From assembly GCA_018303825.1 (NCBI GenBank), contig JAGVXK010000007.1:823-64822 (forward strand): a stretch of DNA of 64,000 bases, read 5' to 3'. This DNA is from Candidatus Pacearchaeota archaeon. Its GTDB lineage: Archaea > Nanobdellota > Nanobdellia > Pacearchaeales > GW2011-AR1. Below the pieces are notes generated by a model. The model saw only the letters and a list, made by a program, of their open reading frames with translations, did not search any database and had not been told where the DNA came from. Within the stretch, counting starts at the first letter, position 1, and each line of letters opens with the position of its first letter. This document shows positions 4,857 to 63,007 of the stretch, in pieces. The translations under genes were made by a program, and so were the position numbers.

Positions 4857-5426
4857 TCAATAGCTCAAAAAAGTGATTTCTGCCTGCGATACTTTCTCGT
4901 AGAATGATATTTCTTTTGACAATTCTCTTCCCGTGTAATATACATCCTCCAAACCTGTCCAGGCAGTAAACCATCCAGCTGGTTCAAGAAGGATTTCAAG
5001 AAACCTGATAAAGTAGTTTTGTATTGCTAAAGATGCAAGAAATGTGGCTATGGATATAAATACCACTCCTAGAAAAGCCATACCTATACCCTTGATTCTC
5101 AGCTTTCTTGAGTCATCATGTAAAAGTTTGTGATGCTTGGCAAAATGCTCTTTTAATCTTCTTTTGATTAGTGTTTCTTGTTGCAGGCTTCTTAATTGAT
5201 AGGGAACTAGTAATTTTAGCTGTATTTGCCCGTTTGGAAGGTCTCTGGTTGCTCTTTTCGCCTCATTTAAGAAGTCTATGGACAATGACCTCTGCGAGTA
5301 GGGTCTTGGGTCGAAGCTGGAAAATATATCGTTATAAGTGTCTAAGATTAATGAAACTTCAGACATCTGCAATAGCTTATACTTCTCCTCTTCTTCAATT
5401 TCTTTTTTTATTTCTTCAATTTTCAT
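4857..5426 (-). CDS. Hypothetical membrane protein
   Basis: 189 aa with a hydrophobic segment GIGMAFLGVVFISIATFLASLAI; no recognisable family. Confidence 0.4.
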   Translation of the reverse strand: MKIEEIKKEIEEEEKYKLLQMSEVSLILDTYNDIFSSFDPRPYSQRSLSIDFLNEAKRATRDLPNGQIQLKLLVPYQLRSLQQETLIKRRLKEHFAKHHKLLHDDSRKLRIKGIGMAFLGVVFISIATFLASLAIQNYFIRFLEILLEPAGWFTAWTGLEDVYYTGRELSKEISFYEKVSQAEITFLSY

Positions 5427-9341: not shown

Positions 9342-9896
9342 TTATTTCTTGCTTTCTTTTATAGCTGCACGAACATTCTTGTTTAATTGCCTCATTGACT
9401 CGTCTAACTGGTCCTTGTTCTTTGTTCCTGTGCAGACAAGCTTTCCATTGCTGAATAATAAGAAGGTGGCTGTTGGCTCAACAAGCTTGTATACTAATCC
9501 AGGGAACTGCTCGGGCTCATATTCTGTGTTTTCTAATGTCAAAGCCAAGATGTTTAGATTAAGACTTAAGTCAATGCTACCAGAAGCGACTATATTCTGG
9601 ACAGTTATTTTTGGTTTTTGTGTAATTCTTACTCCGATTTTAGCTATCTGTCTTATAACTGCATTGATTACTTCCTTGACTTGTGCAACTGACTTTGTGC
9701 CTGTGCATACAAGATTTCCAGAAGAAAAGACGAGAACTGCTGACTTGGGTTTTTTTACTCTTAAAACAAGACCCGGAAATTGCTCTGGATTGTATTCGGT
9801 ATTACTCTGTGTTCTTGCTAATTTTGTCAATGGGACTGGTTTTCCGAGAGAAGTTGTAGCGACAATGTTTTGCACTTTAAGGTCTGTTTTAGTCAT
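9342..9896 (-). CDS. tbp: TATA-box binding protein
   Basis: Two direct repeats QNIVAT/QNIVAS ... EYNPEQFPGLV/EYEPEQFPGLVYK ... LVCTGTK. Confidence 0.92.
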   Translation of the reverse strand: MTKTDLKVQNIVATTSLGKPVPLTKLARTQSNTEYNPEQFPGLVLRVKKPKSAVLVFSSGNLVCTGTKSVAQVKEVINAVIRQIAKIGVRITQKPKITVQNIVASGSIDLSLNLNILALTLENTEYEPEQFPGLVYKLVEPTATFLLFSNGKLVCTGTKNKDQLDESMRQLNKNVRAAIKESKK

Positions 9897-10017
9897 TTTA
9901 GATGTATTTGGGGTTTATAAGGTTTAAAAAGAAAAACGCTTTATAAACCTTTTTAAAGTAAAAGTTCATACTTATAAGTAGGAAAACGTTTATATAATTA
10001 GTATGACTAAATAAGTT

Positions 10018-24773: not shown

Positions 24774-24938
24774 AATTGTTTTTTAATTATTATGCTGTTA
24801 TTTAATTGCATTATCTTTTGATTTAGTTATTTAAGTTCAATCTTAATGGAAGTCAAAACAGGGTTTATATACATCTTTTTCTTGTGTTTCCTGTGAACGA
24901 AAATGACAGATAGGCTTTAGGAAAGTCAAGGTTCATAA

Positions 24939-25568
24939 ATGAGAATGACAGAAAAATACATCAACATTGATTTGAATGATCCTAGAAGCGGAAAGATAGC
25001 AGAGGTAATCAGCAATAAGACGAGCAAGAGAATACTTGGATTGATAGCGGAAAGAGAGATGAGTGCTACAGAGATAGCTAATGAATTGGGATTGCCTTTA
25101 AACACGGCAACATATAATATAGAGAAGTTGGTTGATTCAGGGTTGATTGAGAAAGTAAAGGGATTTTTATGGAGCACAAGGGGGAAGAAGATTGAAAAAT
25201 ATAAAATAGCAAACAAGAAAATAGTTATTTCTCCAAGAACCATGATGAAGGGGATTATTCCTGCAATATTGGGTGTTGGAGTCATCTCTTTTATATTGAA
25301 GTTACTTTCTGATAATCAATCTAATACTAGTAATTATGTTCAGACAGCAGCAATGGATAAAGCAGTTTCAGGCGCCAGCGGGGTAGTCAGTGAGGCAGCT
25401 AGTGAGCTTATTACCAGGCCAGAGCCAGCATCAACGGGAGTTGTGAGTAATATATGCAGTTCTTTTAATTCTCTGTCTGGAGAGGTATGGGCTTGGTTCC
25501 TTCTTGGAGCGCTGGTTGCAATTTTAATCTATTTAATATTCAACAGTATTGAAAGGAGGTATAAATGA
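24939..25568 (+). CDS. ArsR-like winged-helix regulator with two TM segments
   Basis: GKIAEVISNKTSKRILGLIAEREMSATEIANELGLPLNTATYNIEKLVDSGLIEK HTH; TM helices at ~105-125 and the C-terminus. Confidence 0.6.
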   Translation: MRMTEKYINIDLNDPRSGKIAEVISNKTSKRILGLIAEREMSATEIANELGLPLNTATYNIEKLVDSGLIEKVKGFLWSTRGKKIEKYKIANKKIVISPRTMMKGIIPAILGVGVISFILKLLSDNQSNTSNYVQTAAMDKAVSGASGVVSEAASELITRPEPASTGVVSNICSSFNSLSGEVWAWFLLGALVAILIYLIFNSIERRYK

Positions 25569-26287: not shown

Positions 26288-26410
26288 TTTTGCTTTTTTC
26301 ATTATTTTTTTCTTTTTTTATCATTTTTGTAGTTAATCTTGTATAATAATTGTTATTTTGGTTTTAACACAACGTTTAAATATCTATTTTATCTAGTTCT
26401 ATTGCTTAGT

Positions 26411-26462
26411 ATTGATGAGGATTATTGATGCAAGGCATTGATGCAAGGCATTGATGCACAAT
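26411..26462 (+). repeat. Four tandem copies of a 13-bp unit ATTGATGnnnnnn
   Basis: attgatgaggatt / attgatgcaaggc / attgatgcaaggc / attgatgcacaat at exact 13-bp phase. Confidence 0.8.
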
Positions 26463-26495
26463 AAGGAATGAAGAGAGCAGAATGAAAGATAAAAG

Positions 26496-26514
26496 TAGGC
26501 TTTATGAAAGCCTA
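26496..26514 (+). promoter_or_regulatory. Perfect palindrome TAGGCTTTAtgAAAGCCTA upstream of wHTH gene (operator-like)
   Basis: Hairpin/dyad AGGCTTT-nn-AAAGCCT; near-identical copy at 32640..32658 and a half-site copy at 24911..24935. Confidence 0.55.
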
Positions 26515-26535
26515 GGAAGGTAAGGTTATAAAAAT

Positions 26536-26736
26536 ATGAGAGATAAAAAAGAGAGGGTGTTGGATTTATTGAGAAAAGACCCTGATGGATTGACTATAAT
26601 GGAGATTTCTCAAAAAATTGGAGTATCCAGAAATACTGCTGCGGTGGTTCTTGCTGAATTAAGGGGGGCGCAATTGATAAGAGTCAGGGAGATAGGGAAG
26701 GCCAAATTGCATTATTTAAATGGAGATAAAAAATGA
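26536..26736 (+). CDS. Small winged-helix transcriptional regulator
   Basis: LTIMEISQKIGVSRNTAAVVLAELRGAQLI HTH; its stop overlaps the start of the 1305-aa gene (ATGA). Confidence 0.6.
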   Translation: MRDKKERVLDLLRKDPDGLTIMEISQKIGVSRNTAAVVLAELRGAQLIRVREIGKAKLHYLNGDKK

Positions 26737-32629: not shown

Positions 32630-32639
32630 GGCTTAATAA

Positions 32640-32658
32640 TAGGCTTTAGAAAAGCCTA
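32640..32658 (+). promoter_or_regulatory. Palindrome TAGGCTTTAgaAAAGCCTA, second full copy
   Basis: Identical arms to 26496..26514 and also followed by AGGAAAGTAAGGT. Confidence 0.5.
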
Positions 32659-32697
32659 GGAAAGTAAGGTCGCTAAAGCGAAAAGAAAAAGACCTTA

Positions 32698-33792
32698 ATG
32701 AAGTTAAGGTTCACTATGGTGAAAAGAAAAATCATAGGAGGCATAGGAAATAAGATGACAAAAATAGAAGAATTAGAAGTTGAATTGAAAGGAAGAGTCC
32801 AGGGAGTGAATTTTAGATGGATGACTAAAAGATTTGCAGACAAATTAGGATTGAAAGGATATGTAATGAATAAGGAAGATGGAAGTGTTTTTTTAACAGT
32901 GCAGGGAAAGAGAGAAGATATCAATAAAATTATTTTATGGGTGCAGAAAAATCCGGGGTTTTCCAAAGTATGGGGGTTGAGCTATAATTGGAAGAAACCA
33001 ACAATAGATTATAATGAATTCACCATAGTAAAGGACAAGAGTTTTGTTGTTGATAAAGCTAAAAGTATGGTTAATCTGGGAAGATTTTTTGCTGGAAAAT
33101 ATATAGAGAAAATCCCAATTCATGTCGCAATAATTCCAGATGGGAACAGAAGATGGGCCAAGGAAAAAGGACTTTTTTCCAGTTTAGGGCATTACAAAGC
33201 AGGAAATTATGATAATTTAGAATTATTATTTAAGGAAGCAAAAGATATGGGAGTAATGTATATGTCGCTTTGGGGATTTTCAACAGAGAATTGGAAGAGG
33301 GATAAGAAAGAGATAAGTGCTATTTTCAATTTGATATTGAAGGGGGTTGATAAGTTTAGAAGAGATGGGGAGAAAAATAAGATTAGGTTTAGGCATATTG
33401 GAAGAAAAGACAGAATTCCGGAAAGGCTTAGGATTGAACTTGCCAAATTAGAGAAGGAAACTGCAAAGTATGACAAATTTAATGTACAACTGTGCTTAGA
33501 TTATGGCGGACGAGATGAGATAATTAGGGCTGTGAATAAGATGATAAGAAGCGGTGTTAAAAAAATTGACGAAAAAATTTTCGCGGATTATCTGGATACA
33601 AAAGGAATTCCAGACCCTGATTTAGTTATAAGAACCTCTAGGGAATACAGAACATCAGGATTAATGCCATACCAAGCCAGATATGCAGAGCTTTATTTTT
33701 CTAATGTTTATTTTCCTGACTTTGATGCGAAAGAGTTAAGAAAAGCAATAAATGAGTATTCCAAAAGACAGAGAAGATTTGGGGGAAGTTAA
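32698..33792 (+). CDS. uppS: Acylphosphatase domain fused to undecaprenyl/dolichyl-diphosphate synthase (cis-prenyltransferase)
   Basis: N-terminus VQGVNFRWMTKRFADKLGLKGYVMNKEDGSV (acylphosphatase); C-terminus HVAIIPDGNRRWA ... GFSTENW ... YGGRDEI (UPPS). The true start may be the internal ATGGTG at 32716. Confidence 0.7.
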   Translation: MKLRFTMVKRKIIGGIGNKMTKIEELEVELKGRVQGVNFRWMTKRFADKLGLKGYVMNKEDGSVFLTVQGKREDINKIILWVQKNPGFSKVWGLSYNWKKPTIDYNEFTIVKDKSFVVDKAKSMVNLGRFFAGKYIEKIPIHVAIIPDGNRRWAKEKGLFSSLGHYKAGNYDNLELLFKEAKDMGVMYMSLWGFSTENWKRDKKEISAIFNLILKGVDKFRRDGEKNKIRFRHIGRKDRIPERLRIELAKLEKETAKYDKFNVQLCLDYGGRDEIIRAVNKMIRSGVKKIDEKIFADYLDTKGIPDPDLVIRTSREYRTSGLMPYQARYAELYFSNVYFPDFDAKELRKAINEYSKRQRRFGGS

Positions 33793-43239: not shown

Positions 43240-44475
43240 TTATTTCAACCAATGTTTCTTTAGCTTCTGAAATTTGCCTGCTTTTATGCTTTTTCTGATT
43301 TGTTCAAGGAGATTCAGCATGAAATGGAGATTGTGGATTGTTGCTAATTTTGCATAGTCATTATTGTTGTTTTTTTCTTTTGCCAATCTATATAGGTCTG
43401 CTCTTGTATAATGCTTGCATGTTGAGCATCTGCAATTCTTGTCGATTTTAGTTTTGTCATTCTTGTATCTTCCTTTTACTATTTTTATGGTAAATTTATT
43501 TTCTTTATTTCCTCCAGATTCCAGGCTTATGTATAATTGCTTGTGCCTTGCTATTCTTGTCGGATGAACGCAGTCAAAGGTGTCAATGCCACGGGAAACA
43601 CACTCGAATAGGTCATCTATCCAGCCTATGCCGAGCATATGAACTGGTCTATCGTCCAAATACTGAGAAATCCAGTCAATGATTTGATGCATTGCTCTTT
43701 TTGAATCTCCATATGATTCTCCAAAACTTCCGCCTATTGCAATTCCATCAAAAGGCAGGGAAGAGATGAATTTAGCGCTCTTTATTCTTAAATTCTTAAA
43801 TTGTCCTCCCTGAATTATACCATATAATGCTTGTTTTGGATTGTGGTATTTTAATGAAAGAACTGCCCATTTATTTGTTCTTGTCAAGGCAGTTTTTTGG
43901 TATGAAAAGGATTTGTTTGCAGGAGTACATTCGTCAAAAGCCATGATTACATCACTTCCAAGGTTTGATTGAATCTTCATTGATTCTTTCGGACCTATAA
44001 AGTGCAGGGAATTATCATAGACTGACTTGAATTGGATTCCTTTATCAGTTATTTTAACGAAAGAAGGTTTTTTTTCATTTTTTAATATCATTTTCTCTCT
44101 TTCTTGATTTTTTCCGAGTTTCGTATAACCTGTTCTTTTTGCTTCTCCCAATGAAAGTGTTTGGAATCCCCCAGAATCTGTGAAAATAATTCCTTTAAAG
44201 TCCATGAACTTATTTAGTCCTCCAGAGTTTTTTATTAGTTTATCTCCTGGTTTAAGGTGAAGATGATATGTGTTTGCCAAAATACACTTTATGTTTAGGT
44301 TTTTTATGTCTTTCTTGTTTAGGGCTATAATTCTTGCTTTTGTTGCAACTGGAATAAGATAAGGGGTTTCAATCTTTCCGCTTTTTGTTTTTAGTATTCC
44401 TGTCCTTGCCCTGCTTCTTTTGTCTCTGGCAGTTATCTTAAACGACAGTGGAGATTCTTTCTTTTTAGTTATCAT
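43240..44475 (-). CDS. tgtA: tRNA-guanine transglycosylase catalytic core (archaeosine-type; no PUA domain)
   Basis: DGIAIGGSFGESYGD ... GIGWIDDLFECVSRGIDTFDCVHPTRIARH and Zn site CRCSTCKHY... Confidence 0.75.
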   Translation of the reverse strand: MITKKKESPLSFKITARDKRSRARTGILKTKSGKIETPYLIPVATKARIIALNKKDIKNLNIKCILANTYHLHLKPGDKLIKNSGGLNKFMDFKGIIFTDSGGFQTLSLGEAKRTGYTKLGKNQEREKMILKNEKKPSFVKITDKGIQFKSVYDNSLHFIGPKESMKIQSNLGSDVIMAFDECTPANKSFSYQKTALTRTNKWAVLSLKYHNPKQALYGIIQGGQFKNLRIKSAKFISSLPFDGIAIGGSFGESYGDSKRAMHQIIDWISQYLDDRPVHMLGIGWIDDLFECVSRGIDTFDCVHPTRIARHKQLYISLESGGNKENKFTIKIVKGRYKNDKTKIDKNCRCSTCKHYTRADLYRLAKEKNNNNDYAKLATIHNLHFMLNLLEQIRKSIKAGKFQKLKKHWLK

Positions 44476-44516
44476 ATATAATCTGAAATAAGAGAATTTA
44501 AAAATCTCTCTTTTCT

Positions 44517-45839
44517 ATGAAGAATATGGATTTAGAGAAGCTGAATAAGGAAAGAATCTATATTTCTAGTTTAACAGAGAAAGATGATGGAAAGAAAGTT
44601 CTTGTTGCTGGTTGGGTTTATGATTCAAGAGATTTAGGAAAAGTTAGGTTTATTGTTCTAAGGGACATAAGCGGAGAGATACAGGTTACAGGAATCAAAT
44701 CTTCTGCAAAAGAAGATGTTTTTAATATGATGAAATCTCTTACAAGAGAGAGTGTTATTGTTGTTTCTGGAATGGTAAAGAAAAGCGATAAGGCCCCTAG
44801 AAAGAGGGAAATTATTCCCGAAAGCATTGAATTGCTGGCAGAGGCAGAGCAGCCAATCCCTATCGATGTATCTGATTTTTCAAAGACAGAGCTGCCAAAA
44901 AGATTGGATTATAGGTTTTTGGACTTGCATAGAAGAAAAACACAGGCAATTTTTAAAATTCAAAGCACGTTAATGCAAGCATACAGAGAGTTTATGATTA
45001 AAGAAGGAGCGGTTGAAGCTGCTTTCCCTTCTATTATCAGTAGCAGCAGTGAAGGGGGAACAGAATTATTTGAGGCAAAATATTTTGAAAGAAAGGCTTA
45101 TTTAAGTCAGAGCTGTCAATTGTATAAACAGATGCTTGCTTGTTCTATGGAAAAAGTGTTTACCATATTCACTGTTTGGAGAGCTGAAAAACATAATACC
45201 ATTAGGCATCTTAATGAGTCAAGGCAATTAGATTATGAGCAGGCTTTCGCCAATGAGTTTGTAGTTATGGATGTTCTTGGAAGGGCTGTGCAATATATAG
45301 TAAAGAAAGTCATGGAAATTAATAAAGCAGAACTGGATATGCTTGGATTAAAGTTAAAAGTTCCAGGAACAAAGTATATGACTTTTGCTGAAGCTGTAGA
45401 AGTAATGAAGAAAGAGAAAATTCATGTTGGAAAAGATGATTTATCAGGTGAAGCAGAGAAGAAACTTGGGGAATTGTATCCAGATACTGTTGTTTTTGTT
45501 CATGATTGGCCATTATCTGGCAGGCCTTTTTACATAATGCCTAAAAAAGGAAAGAAAGGAGAGGAATTAAGCTGCGGTTTTGATGCGATTTATCAGGGAA
45601 TGGAAATATCTTCGGGCGGGCAGAGAGTTCATCTTCCGGAACTGCTTATAGAAAGATTAAAAATAAAAGGATTGAATCCAAAAGACTTCAAAGCTTATAT
45701 AGACTCGTTTAGATATGGGAGTCCGCCGCACTCGGGTTGGGGCGTCGGGCTGGAAAGGCTGACTATGCTAATTTTAGGACTGGATAATATAAGAGAGGCA
45801 GTTCTATTTCCAAGAGATAGGGATAGATTGACTCCTTAA
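44517..45839 (+). CDS. aspS: Aspartyl-tRNA synthetase (archaeal/eukaryal type)
   Basis: OB anticodon-binding VLVAGWVYDSRDLGKVRFIVLRD, motif 2 FRAE, motif 3 GWGVGLERLTMLILGLDNIREAVLFPRDRDRLTP. Confidence 0.8.
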   Translation: MKNMDLEKLNKERIYISSLTEKDDGKKVLVAGWVYDSRDLGKVRFIVLRDISGEIQVTGIKSSAKEDVFNMMKSLTRESVIVVSGMVKKSDKAPRKREIIPESIELLAEAEQPIPIDVSDFSKTELPKRLDYRFLDLHRRKTQAIFKIQSTLMQAYREFMIKEGAVEAAFPSIISSSSEGGTELFEAKYFERKAYLSQSCQLYKQMLACSMEKVFTIFTVWRAEKHNTIRHLNESRQLDYEQAFANEFVVMDVLGRAVQYIVKKVMEINKAELDMLGLKLKVPGTKYMTFAEAVEVMKKEKIHVGKDDLSGEAEKKLGELYPDTVVFVHDWPLSGRPFYIMPKKGKKGEELSCGFDAIYQGMEISSGGQRVHLPELLIERLKIKGLNPKDFKAYIDSFRYGSPPHSGWGVGLERLTMLILGLDNIREAVLFPRDRDRLTP

Positions 45840-61961: not shown

Positions 61962-62372
61962 TTAAATCAAGCTCTTGACAGGGGATTTGGCTCCGCAGGC
62001 AAGGCAGTGCTTGAATTTTATTCCTTTTTCACTTACTATTTCAGTGTCTGGTTTCTTGCATTCATTGCATAAGACAAATTCTTTTGAGTATAGCTGCATT
62101 TTTTCATTTACTTTAATAGATGGAACTTTTGTATTTAATACCAAACGGTCATTTTCGAGTTTTCCAGAAGTTGCAAGTTCTCTTTGAAGGAATTTTCCTA
62201 TATGTTCAACAGGCCTTCTGACATAACCTGCTATTTGGGAGATGTTGGTTATAATTGTATTTTTTCCCTCTACCATTCCCTGAACTGGTGGGATTTCAAA
62301 CCTATCGCTTCCTGTCTGGACTACCTTTACTTTCTTGTATGCTTCATTTAACAGGGATTCATAATCTTCCAT
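61962..62372 (-). CDS. eif2b: Translation initiation factor 2 subunit beta (aIF-2 beta)
   Basis: RFEIPPVQ...IAGYVRRPVEHIGKFLQRELATSG and zinc ribbon CNECKKPDT...CLACGA. Confidence 0.85.
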   Translation of the reverse strand: MEDYESLLNEAYKKVKVVQTGSDRFEIPPVQGMVEGKNTIITNISQIAGYVRRPVEHIGKFLQRELATSGKLENDRLVLNTKVPSIKVNEKMQLYSKEFVLCNECKKPDTEIVSEKGIKFKHCLACGAKSPVKSLI

Positions 62373-62422
62373 AACTAGATTGAATTAATAGGGTTTATAA
62401 AGTTTGATTTCTTCCGTGAAGA

Positions 62423-63007
62423 ATGGTGGCAAAAGAGAAATTGAGGGGGAGAAGGCTTGCCTTGACTATACTTTTGGGAATTTTTGTTGCTATAATGCTT
62501 ACTATTTTTGTTAATTTGGTTGTAAGTTATTTCTATGAAGGACCTCAGTATGATAAATATTGTGCTGGTTCAATGAGGGAGCCATATCCTATAAAGTATG
62601 GCTACGATGTTGGAATCTGCCAGAATTGCACCTATTCACAGGTATTGCAAGAGCAGGTTGATTCGTGCCAGAAGGATGGGGGAAATGCAGTCTATAATTA
62701 TGATTCTAGAGGCTGTACTGTAAGTTTGAAGAGCTGTGATATGTGCAATAAGGAATTCAATGACGCACAGAATGCATACAATAGGAGGACTTTCTTTATT
62801 TATGCAATAGTCGGATTTATCTTGATAGTATTTGGATTGTTTGCTTCAAGTTTGTTGTTGCAGATAGTTTCCCTGCCTTCTGGGGCTTTCCTAGTCATTG
62901 AAGCAGCAACAAAGAATTTTGATGATAAGCTGTTTGTTATAATCACTTTCGGACTGCTTATTATTGCGGCTCTCTATTTGGCGATAAAGAAATTGAAGTT
63001 GAATTAA
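62423..63007 (+). CDS. Membrane protein with Cys-rich extracytoplasmic domain
   Basis: N- and C-terminal TM helices around a segment with 10 cysteines. Confidence 0.4.
   Translation: MVAKEKLRGRRLALTILLGIFVAIMLTIFVNLVVSYFYEGPQYDKYCAGSMREPYPIKYGYDVGICQNCTYSQVLQEQVDSCQKDGGNAVYNYDSRGCTVSLKSCDMCNKEFNDAQNAYNRRTFFIYAIVGFILIVFGLFASSLLLQIVSLPSGAFLVIEAATKNFDDKLFVIITFGLLIIAALYLAIKKLKLN

What the first reader, a model, noticed from the sequence alone, without database searches (positions are those of the whole stretch)
26496..26514. Recurrent 19-bp palindrome TAGGCTTTAnnAAAGCCTA upstream of three genes
Two perfect-arm copies occur at 26496..26514 and 32640..32658. A degenerate copy with an intact left arm lies at 24911..24935. 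Each sits ~20-40 bp upstream of a start codon and is followed by AGGAAAGTAAGGT/AAGGTTCA, which looks Shine-Dalgarno-like. Two of the three downstream genes are wHTH regulators (the ArsR-like gene at 24939 and the small wHTH at 26536). The third is the acylphosphatase-UppS fusion involved in lipid-carrier synthesis. Dyad symmetry points to a dimeric transcription-factor operator, possibly autoregulatory, linking surface protein, regulator and glycan-carrier genes in one regulon.
Basis: seen in the sequence. Interest (0 to 1): 0.6.

Follow-up and report, generated by a model that had tools for sequence, protein, structure and literature searches.

The report
Three-copy palindromic leader module, Pacearchaeota
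A short palindromic DNA module really does recur in front of three neighbouring gene groups in one uncultured Pacearchaeota archaeon, but it looks like a recent, species-specific insertion whose regulatory role is plausible and unproven.

Summary
TAGGCTTTAnnAAAGCCTA is perfect at 26496-26514 and 32640-32658, and a related copy lies at 24911. No shuffle of the window gave as many matches.

The repeated unit is longer than the palindrome: ATAGGCTTTA[nnAAAGCCTA]GGAArGT(n)AAGGT. The 24911 copy is best read as a 10-nt deletion that lost the right arm.

The host is a leaderless-mRNA archaeon (Candidatus Pacearchaeota, Rifle aquifer). Its promoters are TTTAWAWA exactly 29 nt before the ATG. The module cores contain G and score poorly as TATA boxes, and each site has a canonical TATA box upstream.

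No relative (46-72% protein identity) carries the module. In relatives DHH and UppS overlap, and the ArsR-like and small wHTH genes start where the window keeps a duplicated copy of the gene's 5' end. Two sites are flanked by 9- and 8-nt direct repeats. Both regulator genes have other conserved upstream motifs.

There are three copies in 73 kb, all within 7.7 kb.

My best reading is a species-specific cis-regulatory cassette, probably a shared operator, copied locally to three operon starts (confidence about 0.4). It is not a terminator. A neutral insertion scar, a 5'-UTR RNA element or a weak promoter remain possible.

Interest is modest.

The parts
24910..24933 (+). Site 1 module ATAGGCTTTAGGAAAGTCAAGGTT. 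It has the left arm and the downstream box; the right arm is deleted.
   Evidence: The gapped alignment to site 3 shows a 10-nt deletion.
26490..26526 (+). Site 2 module: the perfect palindrome at 26496-26514 plus GGAAGGTAAGGT.
   Evidence: The RNA hairpin is -8.4 kcal/mol (z -1.7).
32634..32670 (+). Site 3 module: the perfect palindrome at 32640-32658 plus GGAAAGTAAGGT.
   Evidence: The region 32630-32725 folds at z -2.8.
24902..24910 (+). Left copy of the direct repeat AATGACAGA. It abuts the start of site 1 and contains the ancestral-position ATG at 24903, which now opens the uORF MTDRL* (24903-24920).
   Evidence: The null probability of a repeat of 9 nt or more is 0.005-0.006.
24944..24952 (+). 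Right copy of AATGACAGA. It contains the conserved start codon 24945 of the ArsR-like gene.
26487..26494 (+). Left copy of the direct repeat AGATAAAA. It lies inside ATGAAAGATAAAAG, and its ATG at 26482 aligns with the start codons of the relatives. It now opens the uORF MKDKSRLYESLGR* (26482-26523).
   Evidence: The null probability of a repeat of 8 nt or more is 0.014.
26541..26548 (+). Right copy of AGATAAAA, inside the present wHTH start ATGAGAGATAAAAAAG.
24864..24871 (+). Canonical TATA box TTTATATA (11.5 bits) 47 nt upstream of site 1. It is preceded by GGAAGTCAA (24848-24856), an arrangement conserved in relatives.
26375..26382 (+). Canonical TATA box TTTAAATA (13.4 bits) 121 nt upstream of site 2. 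It aligns with the TATA boxes of relatives.
32632..32639 (+). TATA-like CTTAATAA (9.7 bits) directly abutting the site 3 palindrome.
32630..32754 (+). 125-nt spacer between the DHH stop and the true UppS start. It is absent in relatives, where the two genes overlap. It holds a second AAGTTAAGGTTCA box (32702-32713), an in-frame ATG at 32716 and AGGAGG at 32736-32741.

Best explanation
The palindrome is the core of a species-specific repeated DNA module of about 31-37 nt: ATAGGCTTTA-[nnAAAGCCTA]-GGAArGT(n)AAGGT. Short duplicative insertions copied it locally into the 5' boundaries of three neighbouring transcription units in one Candidatus Pacearchaeota population. The units are ArsR-like/SIMPL, small wHTH/giant surface protein, and acylphosphatase-UppS/deoxyhypusine synthase.

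I think it most likely acts at the DNA level as a shared protein-binding site (operator). It would sit at or downstream of the canonical TATA boxes and place the three units under one regulator. A dimer would bind the 8-3-8 dyad at sites 2 and 3, and site 1 would be a weakened half-site.

Shown: the repeat, its positions, its absence from relatives, the flanking duplications, and its poor fit to the genome's TATA consensus.

Inferred: protein binding, repression by roadblock or by blocking polymerase recruitment, and co-regulation of the three units. The binding protein is unknown.
For: - Non-random recurrence. A 37-nt stretch is 86% identical between sites 2 and 3, and all 5 differences lie outside the 16 arm positions (p about 0.05).
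- All three copies have the same orientation, at operon starts.
- The half-site centres are 11 bp apart.
- Each site has a strong canonical TATA box upstream: 11.5, 13.4 and 9.7 bits, against a median of 9.7 for 34 leaderless promoters. The module lies at predicted -21..-3 (site 3), about +18 (site 1) and about +92 (site 2) relative to the predicted transcription start, which is where a repressor would act.
- Site 3 has a third direct AGGCTTAA half-site 11 nt upstream.
- The three copies in 73 kb are all within 7.7 kb and lie next to two regulator genes, which suggests a local function or local copying.
- The module is an addition to the ancestral layout. DHH and UppS overlap in L011, L013 and L124. 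There are about 52 extra nt before the ArsR-like start. The wHTH ATG of relatives aligns with the upstream duplicated ATG.
- The flanking direct repeats of 9 and 8 nt have null probabilities of 0.006 and 0.014.
- Archaeal wHTH and Lrp-type regulators are known to bind semi-palindromic sites as dimers (PMC2995911).
Against: - The module is not conserved in any relative. It has no further copies in public collections.
- Site 1 lacks the right arm. What all three copies share is therefore the left arm plus the downstream box, not the dyad.
- The position relative to the TATA box and the predicted transcription start differs at each site.
- The strain contigs are identical, so there is no polymorphism to test for constraint.
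- Both nearby regulators have other, conserved candidate operators.
- With only three copies, in a compact genome where any tolerated insertion must land between genes, position alone is weak evidence of function.
Confidence: 0.4

Rival explanations
1. The module is a neutral or selfish insertion scar. It would be a tiny repeat copied by repair-templated or transposition-like insertion into nearby sites. It survives only where the target duplication (or the module's own in-frame ATG) keeps the downstream gene intact, and it has no regulatory role.
For: - Direct repeats of 9 and 8 nt abut the module and duplicate the 5' ends of the genes.
- The module is absent from relatives at all three positions.
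- Site 1 is a deletion derivative.
- The ancestral canonical TATA boxes and their conserved neighbouring motifs are intact upstream.
- The truncated uORFs left behind at 24903 and 26482 look like debris.
Against: - No transposase gene lies nearby (Pfam tables).
- Only 3 copies occur in 73 kb, and they are clustered rather than dispersed.
- The repeat lengths are inconsistent, and site 3 has no clear repeat.
- The 3' ends of the three copies differ.
- The arms are perfectly conserved between sites 2 and 3 while the loop and flanks differ.
- Inserts of 34-46 nt are far smaller than known MITEs.
Confidence: 0.25
2. The module acts in RNA. It would be transcribed from the upstream canonical promoters (or co-transcribed with DHH) and form a 5'-leader hairpin followed by a purine-rich AAGGU box and an in-frame AUG. 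This would control translation start or mRNA stability in an organism whose mRNAs are otherwise mostly leaderless.
For: - Canonical TATA boxes lie 47 and 121 nt upstream of sites 1 and 2, so the module should lie within the leader.
- The hairpin is 8 bp at -8.4 kcal/mol, and the site 3 region folds at z -2.8.
- One right-arm change at site 1 is C to T, which keeps a G-U pair in RNA.
- AAGGTT lies 4-9 nt before an in-frame ATG at all three sites: 24939, 26536 and 32716.
Against: - The site 1 hairpin is no better than shuffled sequence (z -0.16), and the gapped alignment says the right arm is deleted there.
- AAGGU matches the anti-Shine-Dalgarno sequence poorly, while internal genes use GGAGG.
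- The conserved starts are 24945 and 32755, not the module's ATGs.
- There is no Rfam match.
- Three copies give no covariation.
Confidence: 0.15
3. The module is itself a weak BRE/TATA promoter. GGC-TTTAnnAA would act as BRE plus TATA box and give each unit a new transcription start.
For: - The left arm resembles the genomic consensus aaRS-TTTAWAWA.
- At site 1 the TTTA is exactly 29 nt from the conserved leaderless start 24945. This matches the 29-nt spacing used by all three relatives.
- Site 2 is at 35 nt. The site 3 core scores 7.9 bits.
- This reading explains why only the left arm is conserved at site 1.
- An insertion between DHH and UppS would uncouple UppS/DHS from DHH.
Against: - The cores contain G at positions where 34 promoters have G in 0-1 cases. 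They score 2.1 and 4.7 bits at sites 1 and 2, against a median of 9.7.
- G-containing cores show no enrichment at -29 among 1098 ORF starts in Pacearchaeota loci, whereas the canonical core occurs 43 times at -29.
- Stronger canonical TATA boxes lie upstream at all three sites.
- The conserved GGAArGTAAGGT box is left unexplained.
Confidence: 0.15
4. The palindrome is a terminator hairpin for the upstream genes.
For: - It forms a stable hairpin.
- Site 3 lies 10 nt after the DHH stop codon.
- The minus strand of site 2 is flagged by the bacterial-type terminator scan.
Against: - No T-run follows on the + strand, and the + strand is not flagged.
- Archaeal termination relies on oligo-T tracts (established knowledge). 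Such tracts sit directly after the upstream stop codons at 24774-24830 and 26288-26330, well before sites 1 and 2.
- No minus-strand gene ends at site 2.
- Terminator-like hits are at chance level (4 found against 3.5 expected).
Confidence: 0.03

Closest known systems
Archaeal transcription-factor operators at or downstream of BRE/TATA (for example sites of Lrp-family LrpA/FL11, TrmB-family and ArsR/MarR-type wHTH regulators)
   Same: It is a short dyad (8-3-8, half-site centres 11 bp apart) next to or downstream of a TATA box. It recurs before several neighbouring operons, and wHTH regulator genes lie beside it.
   Different: It is not conserved together with any regulator gene in relatives. 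One of the three copies lacks a half-site. A conserved 12-nt box follows the dyad. The copies lie in inserted DNA flanked by target duplications. No binding data exist.
Archaeal BRE/TATA core promoter of leaderless genes
   Same: The left arm AGGC-TTTA resembles this genome's aaRS-TTTAWAWA consensus. At site 1 the spacing to the conserved ATG is exactly the genomic 29 nt.
   Different: There is G inside the TATA core, the PWM scores are low, and the spacing is 35 nt at site 2 and 110 nt at site 3. Canonical TATA boxes already exist upstream.
Small repeated palindromic or insertion elements (bacterial REP/BIME, Correia-type MITEs)
   Same: It is a short palindromic repeat between genes. Two copies are flanked by direct target duplications. 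It is lineage-specific.
   Different: Only three copies are seen, and they are clustered. No partner transposase gene (such as a RAYT-type one) is seen nearby. The 3' ends are inconsistent. It is smaller than known MITEs, and all copies point toward a gene start.
5'-UTR stem-loops that control translation or mRNA stability
   Same: It is a hairpin followed by a purine-rich box and an AUG, and it lies downstream of a promoter.
   Different: There is no covariation support. The hairpin is lost at site 1, and the AUGs it precedes are not the conserved starts.

Membership tests
Dimeric transcription-factor operator / local regulon | Dyad symmetry with half-sites about one helical turn apart | tested here: inconclusive
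   This holds at sites 2 and 3, with a perfect 8-3-8 dyad. Site 1 has lost the right arm.
Dimeric transcription-factor operator / local regulon | Recurrence in promoter regions more often than chance, and not inside genes | tested here: met
   There are 3 sites, all at 5' gene boundaries, and 0 of 100 shuffles reach the count. Half-site matches elsewhere are at chance level: 26 found against 28.7 expected.
Dimeric transcription-factor operator / local regulon | Conservation of the site upstream of orthologous genes, or together with the regulator gene | tested here: not met
   The site is absent in L011-L013 and L120-L126. The relatives conserve other motifs instead (GACTTCAA/TTGAAGTC and ATTRATGCACAAT).
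Dimeric transcription-factor operator / local regulon | Specific protein binding | not testable with these tools
   This needs EMSA or DAP-seq.
Archaeal BRE/TATA promoter | A/T-only TATA core matching the genomic consensus TTTAWAWA | tested here: not met
   The cores are TTTAGGAA, TTTATGAA and TTTAGAAA. They score 2.1, 4.7 and 7.9 bits against a median of 9.7. Such cores show no enrichment at -29.
Archaeal BRE/TATA promoter | Fixed 29-nt distance to the start codon of a leaderless gene | tested here: inconclusive
   Site 1 is at 29 nt from the start at 24945. Site 2 is at 35 nt. Site 3 is at 71 or 110 nt.
Transcript terminator | Oligo-T tract at or after the hairpin, on the strand of the upstream gene | tested here: not met
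   There is no T-run on the + strand and the + strand is not flagged.
Mobile miniature repeat (MITE/REP-like) | Flanking target-site duplications of constant length | tested here: inconclusive
   The repeats are 9 nt at site 1 and 8 nt at site 2 (p 0.006 and 0.014). Site 3 has none that is convincing.
Mobile miniature repeat (MITE/REP-like) | Many dispersed copies, with a partner transposase | tested here: not met
   Only 3 clustered copies occur in 73 kb. No transposase appears in the Pfam tables. The rest of the genome was not available.
Structured cis-regulatory RNA | Match to a known family, or covariation support | tested here: not met
   There are no Rfam hits at gathering threshold or at E up to 5. 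Three copies, two of them with identical stems, give no covariation.

The most novel reading that the evidence does not exclude
The module could be a very small duplicative cassette of about 35-50 nt: palindrome, purine-rich box, and an in-frame ATG. It would insert at the extreme 5' ends of genes with 8-9 bp target duplications. In doing so it would rewire neighbouring operons of a reduced DPANN genome under one control, splitting DHH from UppS and bypassing the ancestral autoregulated leaders of two regulator genes. This would be a way to build a regulon by copy-and-paste.
Probability: 0.15. Interest if true: 0.6.

Novelty: new member of a known kind. Interest (0 to 1): 0.3.

Why it matters
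Gene regulation in DPANN archaea is almost unstudied. If the module is a shared operator, it would be a concrete case of a young local regulon. It would link a membrane-tethered ArsR-like regulator, a giant surface protein and the lipid-carrier (cis-prenyltransferase) genes. It would also show how such wiring can arise by short insertions rather than by point mutation.

If the module is only an insertion scar, it still records small templated insertions at the 5' ends of leaderless genes.

Either way, the practical gain from this work is a clean description of this lineage's promoter rule (TTTAWAWA at -29) and corrected gene starts.

Tried and rejected
- **Exact-pattern scans.** The GTDB genome scan gave 2 chance hits, in Saccharibacteria and Legionella. 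The metagenome scan gave 106 loci, none with the downstream box and none from this organism. The virus scans gave 2 hits inside coding sequence. These scans gave no family beyond this species.
- **Rfam.** Nothing was found at gathering threshold or at relaxed threshold.
- **Terminator reading.** Rejected.
- **Link to the ArsR-like gene's conserved motif.** I asked whether the module's GAAAGTCAA box equals the conserved GGAAGTCAA half-site. The 9-mer is not enriched (34 found against 27.5 expected), so the resemblance is not evidence.
- **attL/attR idea.** Sites 2 and 3 might have been attL/attR of an integrated wHTH/giant-protein island. I rejected this because DHH lies inside the interval and is ancestrally adjacent to UppS.
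- **31-nt inverted similarity.** The 31-nt inverted match between site 2 and the DHH promoter (pair I3) is at noise level.
- **CRISPR-like solo repeat.** There is no array in the window.
- **Strain polymorphism.** All contigs are identical.
- **Extending the genome.** This added only 9 kb and no further copy.

Full report
**Observation**

The window carries TAGGCTTTATGAAAGCCTA at 26496-26514 and TAGGCTTTAGAAAAGCCTA at 32640-32658. A 2-mismatch version, TAGGCTTTAGGAAAGTCAA, lies at 24911-24929.
- With up to 3 mismatches there are 6 strand-matches against 0.6 expected, and no shuffle out of 100 reaches that number.
- The single half-site with one mismatch is not enriched (26 found against 28.7 expected).
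- The repeat is longer than the palindrome. A 37-nt stretch is 86% identical between sites 2 and 3. All sites continue with GGAArGT(n)AAGGT.
- The same sequence is present, base for base, in 18 independently assembled contigs from ENA, JGI and Logan. It is therefore not an artefact.

**Host and its promoter rule**

The region encodes deoxyhypusine synthase, TFE and other archaeal markers. NCBI names the identical 66-aa protein as coming from a Candidatus Pacearchaeota archaeon. The samples are Rifle aquifer metagenomes.

Upstream regions of the window's genes show a very regular promoter:
- TTTAWAWA occupies -29..-22 from the ATG, with A at -33/-32. The mRNAs are therefore leaderless.
- Operon-internal genes carry GGAGG.
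- Across the window plus related Pacearchaeota loci, the canonical core occurs 43 times at exactly -29 among 1098 ORF starts.

**Gene starts**
- Homolog N-termini place the UppS-fusion start at 32755 (MTKIEELEVEL...).
- They place the ArsR-like start at 24945 (MTEKYINIDLNDPR).
- Site 3 is therefore 115 nt from its gene, not 20-40 nt.

**Anatomy of the three copies**

A gapped alignment shows that site 1 equals site 3 minus 10 nt (TAGAAAAGCC). It has lost the right arm. What all three copies share is ATAGGCTT plus TAGGAArGT(n)AAGGT.

Between sites 2 and 3 the five differences in 37 nt all avoid the 16 arm positions. My hypergeometric estimate for this is about 0.05.

As RNA the palindrome is an 8-bp hairpin of -8.4 kcal/mol. 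The site 3 region is significantly structured (z -2.8), but site 1 is not (z -0.16).

**Is it a promoter?**

A PWM built from 34 leaderless promoters has a leave-one-out median of 9.7 bits. It gives the module cores 2.1, 4.7 and 7.9 bits. It also finds canonical TATA boxes upstream of every site: 24864 (11.5 bits), 26375 (13.4 bits) and 32632 (9.7 bits, abutting the palindrome).

G-containing cores like those of the module are not enriched at -29.

One observation still favours a promoter role. At site 1 the TTTA is exactly 29 nt from the conserved start, which is the spacing used by all three relatives.

**Is it a terminator?**

No T-run follows on the + strand, and the + strand is not flagged by the terminator scan. 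Oligo-T tracts lie right after the upstream stop codons instead.

**Comparative evidence**

Exact-pattern scans of GTDB genomes, JGI metagenomes and IMG/VR gave only unrelated or chance hits. None has the downstream box.

I examined relatives found through the UppS fusion (61-69% identity), the 66-aa wHTH (65-72%) and the ArsR-like protein (46-55%), together with their genomic context. None has the module.

More telling, the module always lies in DNA that the relatives lack:
1. **DHH/UppS junction.** DHH and UppS overlap (ATGA) in L011, L013 and L124. The window has a 125-nt spacer there.
2. **ArsR-like gene.** In relatives this gene is leaderless, 29 nt after a TATA box that follows a GACTTCAA/TTGAAGTC motif. 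The window keeps that motif and TATA box but has about 52 extra nt before the conserved start.
3. **wHTH gene.** The start codons of relatives align with an upstream ATG at 26482, and the module follows it.

At sites 1 and 2 the module is flanked by direct repeats that duplicate the gene's 5' end:
- AATGACAGA at 24902-24910 and 24944-24952.
- AGATAAAA at 26487-26494 and 26541-26548.
- The null probabilities are 0.006 and 0.014 near gene starts.
- The duplications leave short uORFs behind.
- Site 3 has no convincing repeat.

A further 9 kb of the same genome holds no additional copy. There are thus three copies in 73 kb, all within 7.7 kb.

**Candidate regulators**

Both local regulator genes already have upstream motifs that are conserved with them across genomes:
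- The GACTTCAA...TTGAAGTC dyad precedes the ArsR-like TATA box.
- ATTRATGCACAAT repeats precede the wHTH gene. They are inverted and co-varying in L121-L123. In the window they form a perfect tandem, ATTGATGCAAGGC x2.7 at 26424-26458.

These are better autoregulatory candidates than the palindrome.

**Interpretation**

The data show a young, species-specific module that was copied locally to three operon starts. Its dyad geometry, intact arms, single orientation and position at or downstream of canonical TATA boxes make a shared protein-binding operator the most likely function. I give this about 0.4. The mechanism, either a roadblock or blocking of polymerase recruitment, is inferred by analogy with archaeal wHTH and Lrp regulators that bind semi-palindromic sites as dimers (PMC2995911).

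The rivals are:
- A neutral insertion scar (0.25).
- A 5'-leader RNA element (0.15).
- A weak promoter of its own (0.15).
- A terminator (0.03).

The regulon idea is plausible but unproven. The autoregulation and Shine-Dalgarno details are not supported.

**Novelty and interest**

This is a new, lineage-restricted example of a familiar kind of element. The insertion signature is the unusual part, but it rests on two sites. I score interest at 0.3.

Noticed in passing
window 26411-26462; L120-L123 upstream of the wHTH homologs: A conserved ATTRATGCACAAT element travels with the small wHTH gene across genomes. In L121-L123 it forms a co-varying inverted pair just after the TATA box and just before the ATG. 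In the window it is a perfect tandem array, ATTGATGCAAGGC x2.7. It is a likely autoregulatory operator or a leader RNA helix.
   Followed up: partly
window 24848-24871; L124 about 9825-9865; L126 about 5040-5075; L125 about 9925-9965: ArsR-like/SIMPL operons in relatives carry a GACTTCAA-N-TTGAAGTC dyad directly upstream of the TATA box. The window keeps GGAAGTCAA plus the TATA box. This is a candidate autoregulatory site for this membrane-anchored HTH_20 protein family.
   Followed up: partly
window 30647/30648: The window lacks 22 nt (ATGAAAGATTTAATCTTGCAGT) that are present in other assemblies of the same strain. This splits a 1600-aa giant protein into ORFs of 1305 and 283 aa. One JGI contig ends exactly at this point, so the cause is probably an assembly join rather than biology.
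   Followed up: yes
whole window, for example 62372-62423 and 44475-44517: There is a strict promoter geometry: TTTAWAWA at -29 from the ATG, giving leaderless mRNAs. Divergent gene pairs share one symmetric TATA box within intergenic regions of 40-50 bp.
   Followed up: yes
window 32755-33792 and homologs P0001-P0120: The acylphosphatase-cis-prenyltransferase (UppS) fusion is widespread in DPANN ('Nanoarchaeota') MAGs. It is usually translationally coupled to an upstream DHH/DHHA1 phosphoesterase gene and followed by deoxyhypusine synthase.
   Followed up: partly
L124 3693-3722, 5213-5290 and 11411-11509: The relative L124 has an excess of long perfect palindromes in intergenic regions (8 found against 0.9 expected). 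One is a 14-bp-arm pair of inverted TATA boxes upstream of the TBP gene. Another is a dyad upstream of its DHH-UppS-DHS operon.
   Followed up: no
L129 11641-15210 (same genome, just beyond the window's right end): The MCM helicase gene carries an intein with a LAGLIDADG homing-endonuclease domain.
   Followed up: no
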